Source of the DNA: the human T2T-CHM13v2.0 reference genome, Homo sapiens
DNA length: 64,000 nucleotides
NCBI RefSeq assembly: GCF_009914755.1
Contig: NC_060939.1
Direction: 5' to 3' (one strand)
The notes beneath the pieces were generated by a model, which did no database searches, was not told where the DNA came from, and saw nothing but the letters and a program-made list of their open reading frames with translations. Below are positions 46,031-47,329 of the stretch, in pieces. Made by a program: the position numbers and the translations under genes. Position 1 is the stretch's first letter, and every line of letters begins with the position of its first letter.

Positions 46031-46776
46031 ACTGCAATCCCCTAAGAGGAAAACTAAGTTTCAGCACCAATATCCTAAGCCCCCACTGCACGTTGCCTCG
46101 GGTACACTGAGGTTCAGCTCCAGCCTTATTTTGACCTGGTCAGTGCTAGGCCCAACAGTGGCTCTTTTCCTTTGTGTCGATCCTGCTTGAGGTTTATTGA
46201 GCTTCTTGTATCTGTGGGTTTATCGTTTTCATCAAATCTGGGAAATTCAAGGGCATTAATTTTGAAATCTTTTCTGCCCCCCGACAACCTCTTACTAGGA
46301 TTCCAATCACAGGCATATTAGAATCGCTGATGTTTGTCTCAGTTTGCTGAGGCCCTTCTCGTTTTTTTCATCATTTTTTTCTTTTGGTGCTTCAGTTCAG
46401 CTAGTTTCCACTGTTATAATCTCAAACTCACTCAACTCCCGCAAAGTCTACTCTGATATTCGGCCCAACAAGTAATTTTTCATTCTAGATACTGCATTTC
46501 AGCTTTAATTCACTGGATTATTTATATAACACCCATTTATCTCTGCATTGTTTTCCCTGAATCCTTGAGCACATGCATAGTCGCTGCCTTAACATCCTTG
46601 TCTGCGAATTCCATCATCTCTGTCATTTCTGCGTCTGTTTTGTACAGTGATTTTTCTCTGGGCTATGGGTCACATTTTCCTGGTTCTTGGCATATCTAGT
46701 AATTCTTGATTGGGCACTGGGCATTTCAGTGCCATGCTGCATGTCTTGACTTTGTTACTGTCTTTTAAAGAGTGTT

Positions 46777-47180
46777 GGCCGGGCGAGGTGGCTCACGGCT
46801 GTAATCCCAGCACTTTGGGAGGCCGAGGCAGGTGGATCACCTGAACCTGAGGTCAGGAGTTTGAGACCAGCCTGGCCAACATGGTGAAACCCCATGTCTA
46901 CTAAAAATACAAAAGTTAGCCAGGCGTGGTGGCACATGCCTGTAATCTCAGGTACTCGGGAGGCTGAGGCAGGAGAATCACTTGAACCCAGGAGGCAGAA
47001 GTTGCAGTGAGCCGAGATCACACTGTTACACTCTAGCCTGGGCAACAAGAGCAAAACTCTGTCCCCGCAAAAAAAGGAAAACTAGTACAACAAAGGGACG
47101 TGGAGAATAAAATGAGAAGGTCTAACTAACATATATCTAACTGAAATCCAGAATGGCAAGAATAGGGAGAAAAAAAAAAG
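46777..47180 (+). mobile_element. AluSq-like with about 94-bp 3' tag and second A-tail (apparent 3' transduction)
   Basis: TSD aaagagtgtt/atagagtgtt encloses Alu + tag + A-run; the tag matches 22170-22260. Confidence 0.85.
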
Positions 47181-47329
47181 ATAGAGTGTTGAATGTCTTG
47201 GGGGGCAGGCAGTTGACTTACTTGTCAATCTGCTGGATCTTGTCATGATGAATTTTTGGCACTTGTAGGGATGGGCATAATTCAGTACCTCTGGCACCTC
47301 TAGTGAACATCTGGGTGTTCAACAGGGTT

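What the first reader, a model, noticed from the sequence alone, without database searches (positions are those of the whole stretch)
46767..47191. Apparent Alu 3' transduction whose source Alu lies 25 kb away in the same gene
Seen: the AluSq-like element at 46777-47075 is followed by about 94 nt (47077-47170), an A-run and the right TSD (atagagtgtt; left copy aaagagtgtt after tttt, an L1-endonuclease-type site). The tag aligns with 22170-22260, the immediate 3' flank of another AluSq/Sp-like element (21863-22169), with about 9 mismatches in 91 nt plus a 4-nt duplication. The tag includes that Alu's own TSD and the MLT1-end/L1 junction, so it is locus-specific rather than generic L1 similarity. 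Removing the whole cassette restores a continuous antisense L1 ORF1-like sequence. Established: 3' transduction is routine for L1 and SVA but not expected for Alu, because priming occurs on the A-tract upstream of the unique Pol III read-through flank; reported Alu cases are few and debated. Inference: the 21863 Alu was an active source element, and a read-through RNA (no TTTT until about 22302) was re-inserted locally. This would identify a parent-daughter Alu pair and a local-hopping event.
Basis: partly seen in the sequence, partly recalled or inferred. Interest (0 to 1): 0.85.

Follow-up and report, generated by a model that had tools for sequence, protein, structure and literature searches.

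The report
Alu carrying a neighbour Alu's flank
An old Alu repeat in a CYFIP1 intron carries, inside its poly-A tail, a 94-base copy of the DNA that lies just behind another Alu 25 kb away; this is real, but local DNA repair copying explains it at least as well as the rare "Alu 3' transduction" that was proposed.

Summary
Alu D (46777-47068) is followed by A7, a 94-nt tag (47076-47169), A10 and a 9/10 target-site duplication. The tag matches the DNA just behind the A-tail of Alu S (22170-22260): 86% over 101 nt, E 1.6e-29. That is its only non-self hit in the 3.1-Gb genome. The tag spans S's own target-site duplication and a locus-specific repeat-end junction, so it comes from the S locus. A paralogous copy of the host repeat runs uninterrupted across the site.

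The mechanism is not settled. For transduction: the two Alus share a subfamily (all four markers in 2 of 40 other window Alus), and tag divergence fits D's age. Against it:
- S's flank has no TTTT before 22302 and no poly-A signal within 60 nt of the tag end.
- No variant is private to the pair.
- The chance of landing within 25 kb of the source is about 1.6e-5.
- A strict survey confirmed 0 transductions among 118,489 AluY.

Both tag borders lie in A-runs and the donor is near, in cis and co-oriented. I favour DNA-templated ectopic repair into D's A-tail (about 0.5) over true Alu 3' transduction (about 0.25). Primate orthologues would decide.

The parts
46767..46776 (+). Left target-site duplication of the recipient Alu (aaagagtgtt), preceded by tttt, an L1-endonuclease-type site
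   Evidence: Read. A single copy of this sequence is present in the paralogous host-repeat copy L011.
46777..47068 (+). Recipient Alu D: full-length body with a 6-nt internal tandem duplication (acctga)
   Evidence: 16/238 non-CpG differences from the window Alu consensus. Carries four subfamily markers.
47069..47075 (+). Internal A7 run between Alu D and the tag (left junction)
   Evidence: It aligns with the distal part of S's A-tail.
47076..47169 (+). The 94-nt tag, a copy of the DNA just 3' of Alu S's A-tail. Its first ~17 nt are S's right TSD. It carries a 4-nt ctaa duplication.
   Evidence: 86% over 101 nt, E 1.6e-29. Only non-self genome hit. Alignment.
47170..47180 (+). Terminal A10 run plus g (right junction). 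Either a new poly-A tail or the distal remainder of D's original tail.
   Evidence: S reads aa at the corresponding place (22259-22260), a 2-nt microhomology.
47181..47190 (+). Right target-site duplication (atagagtgtt), 9/10 identical to the left copy
   Evidence: The host repeat resumes after it: 47204-47224 is collinear with L011.
21845..21861 (+). Left TSD of donor Alu S. It is also the terminal bases of an older dispersed repeat.
   Evidence: In 11 of 11 paralogs the homology ends here.
21862..22142 (+). Donor-side Alu S: same subfamily markers as D, with a 10-nt 5' deletion, a 6-nt deletion and a 15-nt duplication, none of them shared with D
22143..22169 (+). A-tail of S (A16 G AAA G A6)
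22170..22260 (+). Donor segment copied into the tag: S's right TSD plus 75 nt of flank, ending in gggag-aa
22302..22305 (+). First TTTT (possible Pol III terminator) downstream of S, 42 nt beyond the end of the copied segment
46480..46776 (-). Host repeat into which the cassette is inserted (left part). The right part resumes at 47191.
   Evidence: 207 genome candidates, 40 scored at 72-81%. L011 is collinear across the site. Marginal L1 ORF1 tblastn hit just beside it.

Best explanation
Two steps. (1) Shown: Alu D is an ordinary L1-mediated insertion. It is full length, sits at a TTTT/AA-type site and has a 10-nt TSD. (2) Inferred: later, probably while its A-tail was still long, a break or stalled fork in that tail was repaired from the A-tail of Alu S, 25 kb away on the same strand. 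The 3' end primed in S's A-run and copied the rest of S's tail plus about 90 nt of S's flank. It then dissociated and rejoined the far side of D's tail through A/AA microhomology. This could be one-ended synthesis-dependent strand annealing finished by end joining, or a replicative template switch. The result, Alu-A7-tag-A10-TSD, mimics a 3' transduction. It has no known function; it is a neutral repair scar in a CYFIP1 intron.
For: - Both tag borders lie in A-runs. The right border coincides with aa in the donor.
- The donor lies 25.3 kb away, in cis and in the same orientation. A retrotransposed copy would land that close with a chance of about 1.6e-5 (genome size).
- The donor flank offers no RNA 3'-end signal where the tag stops. 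The first TTTT is at 22302. The only poly-A-type hexamer (AATAGA) is 63 nt upstream. The terminal A10 is therefore more simply D's own tail.
- D's internal A-run (7 nt) is unlike S's 27-nt tail.
- The Alu bodies show no pair-private variant: 0 of 9 shared variants are absent from other window Alus. They share no indel.
- Literature: a strict survey confirmed 0 transductions in 118,489 full-length AluY of this assembly (Halabian 2024 preprint, whole text read). DNA-level exchange between neighbouring Alus is documented, within about 10 kb and declining with distance (Doronina 2021, passages, citing Aleshin & Zhi 2010).
Against: - No example of exactly this outcome, an Alu tail patched with a neighbour's flank, was found in the papers searched. 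Its rate is my estimate, not a measurement.
- D and S share all four non-CpG subfamily markers, which 2 of 40 other window Alus carry in full. Under independent insertion that is roughly a 5-10% coincidence.
- Tag divergence (10/90) equals about twice D's private divergence. This favours acquisition at, not after, D's insertion by a factor of about 3.4 if the timing of a later event were uniform.
- 25 kb exceeds the ~10-kb range quoted for Alu-Alu conversion, and several co-oriented Alus lie nearer to D.
- There is no conversion tract in D's Alu next to the tail: mismatch density is 13.8%, 12.4% and 15.1% by thirds. Priming would therefore have used the A-run alone.
Confidence: 0.5

Rival explanations
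1. True Alu 3' transduction. A transcript starting at Alu S ran through its A-tail into the flank and acquired a 3' A-tract after ...gggag. L1 ORF2p then reverse-transcribed it at the TTTT/AA site at 46766/7 in one event. S is the parent and D the daughter.
For: - The cassette has the canonical layout: full-length Alu from its first base, tail, donor's immediate flank starting with the donor's own TSD, A-run, and a TSD at an endonuclease-type site.
- The tag is unique to the S locus.
- Same subfamily markers.
- Body divergence is not different from tag divergence: 32/229 non-CpG or 36/262 overall, against 10/90 in the tag; Fisher p 0.58.
- Three-way TSD comparison fits the order S insertion then copy: D's copy keeps the base that S's right copy later changed.
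- S is not younger than D.
- Precedent is claimed in print: 386 'Alu 3'' transductions at highest confidence among 1,182,410 Alus of CHM13 (Hoyt 2021 preprint, section 7 read), including AluSx3-WaluSat.
Against: - The chance of landing within 25 kb of the source is about 1.6e-5. Even with 386 events genome-wide, about 0.006 such pairs are expected.
- No Pol III terminator or poly-A signal lies at the tag end, so the terminal A10 has no source.
- No pair-private variant or shared indel.
- By BLASTN identity to D, S ranks 39th of the 41 long non-self Alu matches in the window.
- The strict AluY survey confirmed none.
- An earlier paper states that none had been reported (PMC4862182, passage).
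Confidence: 0.25
2. RNA-mediated, but D's Alu body is not S's. Either reverse transcriptase began on a polyadenylated RNA covering S's flank and switched at the A-tract to an unrelated Alu RNA (a bipartite chimeric retrocopy). Or a short 5'-truncated retrocopy of S-flank RNA inserted into the A-tail of a pre-existing D. One possible RNA source is read-through from NIPA2, which ends 3.6 kb upstream on the same strand according to the hub's gene table.
For: - This would explain the absence of pair-private variants and the dissimilar A-tails.
- An A-tract is a natural switch or annealing point.
- That chimeric retrocopies with full-length small-RNA 5' parts exist is recalled knowledge.
Against: - It carries the same 1.6e-5 proximity penalty and the same lack of a poly-A signal at the tag end.
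- It needs two coincidences: an RNA from the S locus, and a border exactly at S's tail.
- The shared subfamily again becomes a coincidence.
Confidence: 0.1

Closest known systems
L1/SVA-type 3' transduction, and the catalogued 'Alu 3' transductions' of T2T-CHM13 (Hoyt et al. 2021 preprint; AluSx3-WaluSat)
   Same: Element, own tail, the donor's immediate 3' flank, an A-run and a TSD enclosing everything. The donor locus is identifiable from unique sequence.
   Different: No RNA 3'-end signal at the end of the copied segment. The donor is only 25 kb away in cis. Identity is 86%, below the 90% used by the strict AluY pipeline. I could not see Table S13 (bioRxiv supplements are closed), so I do not know whether this locus is already listed.
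Non-allelic gene conversion or ectopic repair between neighbouring Alus (Aleshin & Zhi 2010 as cited in Doronina et al. 2021), and one-ended homologous repair completed by end joining (the latter recalled, not read here)
   Same: A cis, nearby, co-oriented Alu acts as donor. A short synthesis tract of about 100 nt is copied. Junctions lie in homology or microhomology.
   Different: Classical Alu conversion replaces sequence inside the Alu body. Here the body shows no converted tract, and unique flank was added to the tail.
Heterogeneous or expanded Alu poly-A tails that displace the 3' TSD (Halabian et al. 2024: 633 of 118,489 AluY)
   Same: The 3' TSD lies about 110 nt beyond the Alu body.
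   Different: The intervening sequence is not an A-rich microsatellite. It is a complex 94-nt segment with a single identifiable donor.

Membership tests
Alu 3' transduction (retrotransposed read-through transcript) | The extra segment equals the immediate 3' flank of a same-orientation source element and starts right after its tail | tested here: met
   47076-47169 matches 22170-22260 and begins with S's TSD.
Alu 3' transduction (retrotransposed read-through transcript) | One TSD at an L1-endonuclease-type site encloses element plus segment plus terminal A-run | tested here: met
   TSD 9/10, preceded by tttt. The paralog shows the undisrupted site. A later insertion into D's tail predicts the same picture.
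Alu 3' transduction (retrotransposed read-through transcript) | An RNA 3'-end signal in the source where the segment ends: TTTT just downstream (the Halabian criterion) or a poly-A signal 10-30 nt upstream | tested here: not met
   The first TTTT is at 22302, 42 nt past the segment end. The only hexamers are AATAGA (S) and AATAAA (D), 63-66 nt upstream. The hexamer list was recalled.
Alu 3' transduction (retrotransposed read-through transcript) | Source and offspring bodies are of one lineage: same subfamily and shared private variants | tested here: inconclusive
   All four non-CpG subfamily markers are shared; 2 of 40 other Alus have all four. 0 of 9 shared variants are private to the pair, and no indel is shared. 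This is the expected picture if S was young when copied.
Alu 3' transduction (retrotransposed read-through transcript) | Alu and segment appear together in phylogeny: an empty site in outgroups and no Alu-only intermediate | not testable with these tools
   Only the human T2T assembly is held; the tool reports no relatives.
DNA-templated ectopic repair patch (one-ended SDSA or template switch) | Donor nearby in cis, with orientation preserved | tested here: met
   25.3 kb apart, same strand, and the only other copy in the genome.
DNA-templated ectopic repair patch (one-ended SDSA or template switch) | Both junctions at homology or microhomology between recipient and donor | tested here: met
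   Left junction in A-runs (A7 against a 27-nt tail); right junction at aa. This is weak, because A-runs are also what transduction predicts.
DNA-templated ectopic repair patch (one-ended SDSA or template switch) | The recipient existed before the patch: an orthologue or allele with Alu D but no tag | not testable with these tools
   No primate genomes are available.
Expanded or heterogeneous Alu poly-A tail | The sequence between Alu and 3' TSD is A-rich low-complexity | tested here: not met
   It is a complex sequence with a unique 86% donor match.

The most novel reading that the evidence does not exclude
A genuine AluS 3' transduction. A read-through RNA from the Alu at 21862 was re-inserted 25 kb away in the same gene. 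This would give one of very few sequence-proven parent-daughter Alu pairs, would show that an Alu RNA with about 90 nt of unique 3' flank can be mobilised without a recognisable terminator or poly-A signal, and would hint at local re-insertion.
Probability: 0.25. Interest if true: 0.6.

Novelty: new member of a known kind. Interest (0 to 1): 0.4.

Why it matters
Whether Alu elements ever carry flanking DNA with them is disputed. One T2T analysis lists 386 such events; a stricter follow-up from the same transduction analysts confirms none among AluY. This locus is a clean, old test case: a unique donor, an intact TSD and both junctions readable. If it is a transduction, it identifies an Alu source element directly. 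If it is a repair patch, it shows that DNA-level copying between neighbouring Alu tails can mimic every hallmark used by transduction callers except donor location. In that case, cis-proximal 'Alu transductions' in catalogues should be re-examined. There is no sign of functional consequence for CYFIP1.

Tried and rejected
- Generic repeat similarity as the source of the tag: rejected. There is only one non-self genome hit over the full 94 nt. The same tool found 207 candidates for the neighbouring host repeat. The junction inside the tag is locus-specific in 11 of 11 paralogs.
- Segmental duplication: rejected. Homology stops at the left TSDs and at ...gggag-aa. The right host flank 47181-47330 has no other genome copy.
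- Reverse direction, D as donor: rejected. S's flank continues beyond the tag without an A-run, and the tag's first 17 nt are S's TSD, which is also present left of S.
- Conversion tract in the Alu body: looked for and not seen.
- Shared private variants: looked for, none found. Shared CpG-site changes (5) are each common in other Alus (9-14 of 40), so they count as parallel decay.
- Naming the flanks: 0 Pfam families, 0 PDB hits, BLASTP E 0.33. The first ORF picked was L1 ORF2, not ORF1; this was corrected. It incidentally marked an ORF2-like fragment at 36201-36751 on the minus strand.
- Paralogs L004-L010 did not span the insertion site. L006 stops at an Alu of its own. L011 did span it.
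- The window self-comparison for other low-copy local duplicates gave only older repeats and two tandem pairs. It gives no rate estimate for local patches.
- The Science version of Hoyt et al. was not held under the two ids tried. The second id was recalled and may be wrong.

Full report
**What is there**

The recipient locus reads, on the plus strand:
- tttt, then the TSD aaagagtgtt (46767-46776)
- a full-length Alu, D, from its first G (46777-47068)
- A7 (47069-47075)
- a 94-nt complex segment, the tag (47076-47169)
- A10 and a g (47170-47180)
- the TSD atagagtgtt (47181-47190)

The donor locus is Alu S (21862-22142). Its tail is A16-G-AAA-G-A6 (22143-22169). It is bracketed by a 17-nt TSD, (a)gaaaactaatacaaca, at 21845-21861 and 22169-22185, with one mismatch.

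**The tag really is a copy of S's flank**
- BLASTN of 47070-47200 against the window gives 22164-22260 at 86.1% over 101 columns, with 10 mismatches and one 4-nt gap, E 1.6e-29. Nothing else is better than a 31-nt match at E 0.002.
- In the whole T2T genome the 94-nt tag has two matches, itself and window 22170-22259 (86%, query 1-94, E 1.1e-22). Only two candidates were found in the first look.
- The tool warns that its counts are lower bounds. As a control, the adjacent host flank returned 207 candidates, 40 scored at 72-81% identity. Old dispersed repeats are therefore visible to it.
- S's flank beyond the tag (22261-22420) has only one 51-nt partial match elsewhere.

**The junction inside the tag is locus-specific**

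The DNA left of S belongs to a dispersed repeat with 45 candidates, 40 scored. I examined 11 paralogous copies. In all 11, homology ends at ...AAAACTAATACA, which is within S's TSD. In none does it continue into what lies right of S; two match only the 17-20-nt TSD portion. The tag therefore carries the last ~16 nt of that repeat joined to S's right flank, a join that exists only at the S locus.
- Pfam gave 0 families.
- The PDB sequence search gave 0 hits.
- BLASTP of S's flank against a young L1 ORF1 frame gave E 0.33.
- For the host of D there is only a marginal tblastn hit at 46170-46319 on the minus strand, E 0.035.

The argument does not depend on these names.

**The cassette is one interruption of the host repeat**

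A paralogous copy on another chromosome (L011) aligns with 46573-46777 (71.7% over 212, E 4.6e-24). Eleven bases later it aligns with 47204-47224 (19/21, E 0.002). It has a single copy of the TSD sequence. The other seven paralogs fetched did not reach the site.

**Are the two Alu bodies parent and daughter?**

They are no closer to each other than to other Alus:
- D against S gives 75.6% by BLASTN, ranking 39th of the 41 long non-self Alu matches in the window.
- At non-CpG sites the difference is 32/229 (14.0%) in a 42-Alu alignment.
- In a pairwise alignment there are 36/262 mismatches and 49 gap columns. There is no gradient toward the tail: 13.8%, 12.4% and 15.1% by thirds.
- None of the indels is shared: a 10-nt and a 6-nt deletion and a 15-nt duplication in S, and a 6-nt duplication in D.

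They do share nine non-consensus bases. Each of these is also present in 5-16 of the 40 other Alus. The four non-CpG ones behave as subfamily markers: all four occur in 2 of 40 other Alus, and three of four in 2 more. The pair is therefore of the same subfamily, which would be a 5-10% coincidence if they inserted independently. There is no variant private to the pair. That is what a young source would give, so the test is inconclusive.

Private non-CpG changes number 20 in S and 12 in D (binomial p 0.22). The tag's 10/90 (95% CI 5.5-19.5%) does not differ from the body's non-CpG divergence (Fisher p 0.58). It equals about twice D's private divergence. This favours acquisition at D's insertion over a uniformly timed later event by about 3.4-fold. 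The advantage shrinks if young long A-tails are the fragile ones.

**What speaks against one RNA**
- S's flank has no TTTT before 22302, 42 nt beyond the end of the copied segment. There are only TTT runs at 22225 and 22280.
- The only poly-A-type hexamers are AATAGA in S and AATAAA in D, 63-66 nt upstream of the A-run (the hexamer list was recalled). The A10 behind the tag therefore has no evident RNA origin.
- A retrotransposed copy lands within ±25.3 kb of its source with a chance of 1.6e-5.

Literature:
- Halabian et al. 2024 (preprint, whole text read) confirmed 0 transductions among 118,489 full-length AluY of this same assembly. They did not examine AluS and they excluded segments containing L1, so this locus was outside their screen.
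- Hoyt et al. 2021 (preprint, section 7 read) list 386 highest-confidence 'Alu 3'' transductions among 1,182,410 Alus. Even at that rate, about 0.006 source-copy pairs within 25 kb are expected genome-wide.
- Tica et al. 2016 (passage) state that none had been reported.

**The rival that fits these points**

Both borders of the tag lie in A-runs. The right border coincides with aa in the donor. The donor is near, in cis and co-oriented. D's two A-runs together (about 18 nt) make an ordinary old Alu tail. A break or stalled fork in D's tail could have been primed on S's tail, extended about 100 nt into S's flank, and rejoined by microhomology. That would give exactly this structure with no RNA signal needed.

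DNA-level exchange between neighbouring Alus is documented: within about 10 kb and falling with distance, and 98 type-changing conversion loci (Doronina et al. 2021, passages). SDSA tracts of up to a few hundred nt are textbook (PMC7407515, passages).

I found no paper describing this exact outcome. Its rate is my estimate. 25 kb is beyond the quoted range. The shared subfamily must be coincidence under this reading.

**Verdict**

The mechanism is open. I put DNA-templated patching of D's tail at about 0.5, true Alu 3' transduction at about 0.25, and other RNA-mediated chimeras at about 0.1. The rest is unassigned. Primate orthologues, which these tools do not hold, would decide.

Noticed in passing
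window 21862-22142: Alu S has lost 10 nt near its 5' end, where I recall the Pol III A box to lie. It also has a 6-nt deletion and a 15-nt internal duplication around 21968-21990. As it stands it is unlikely to be transcribable, so any source activity predates these changes.
   Followed up: partly
window 36201-36751 (-): tblastn with an ORF2 N-terminal frame of a young L1 copy (L025) hits here at 37-38% identity (joint E 3.9e-20). This is an old antisense L1 ORF2 fragment.
   Followed up: no
window 58832-58994 and 43920-44028: Two short local direct repeats: 55 nt at 98% identity spaced 108 nt apart, and 55 nt at 87% in tandem. They were seen in the window self-comparison.
   Followed up: no
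window 47331-47635 (-): An antisense Alu with a T12 run at 47331-47342 lies about 140 nt right of the cassette. It interrupts the same host repeat, which is why paralogs could be followed only to about 47224.
   Followed up: partly
window 47106-47111 vs 22199-22204: D's tag reads AATAAA where the donor reads AATAGA. The direction of change cannot be polarised without an outgroup. At 66 nt from the A-run it is too far to serve as the poly-A signal for that run.
   Followed up: partly
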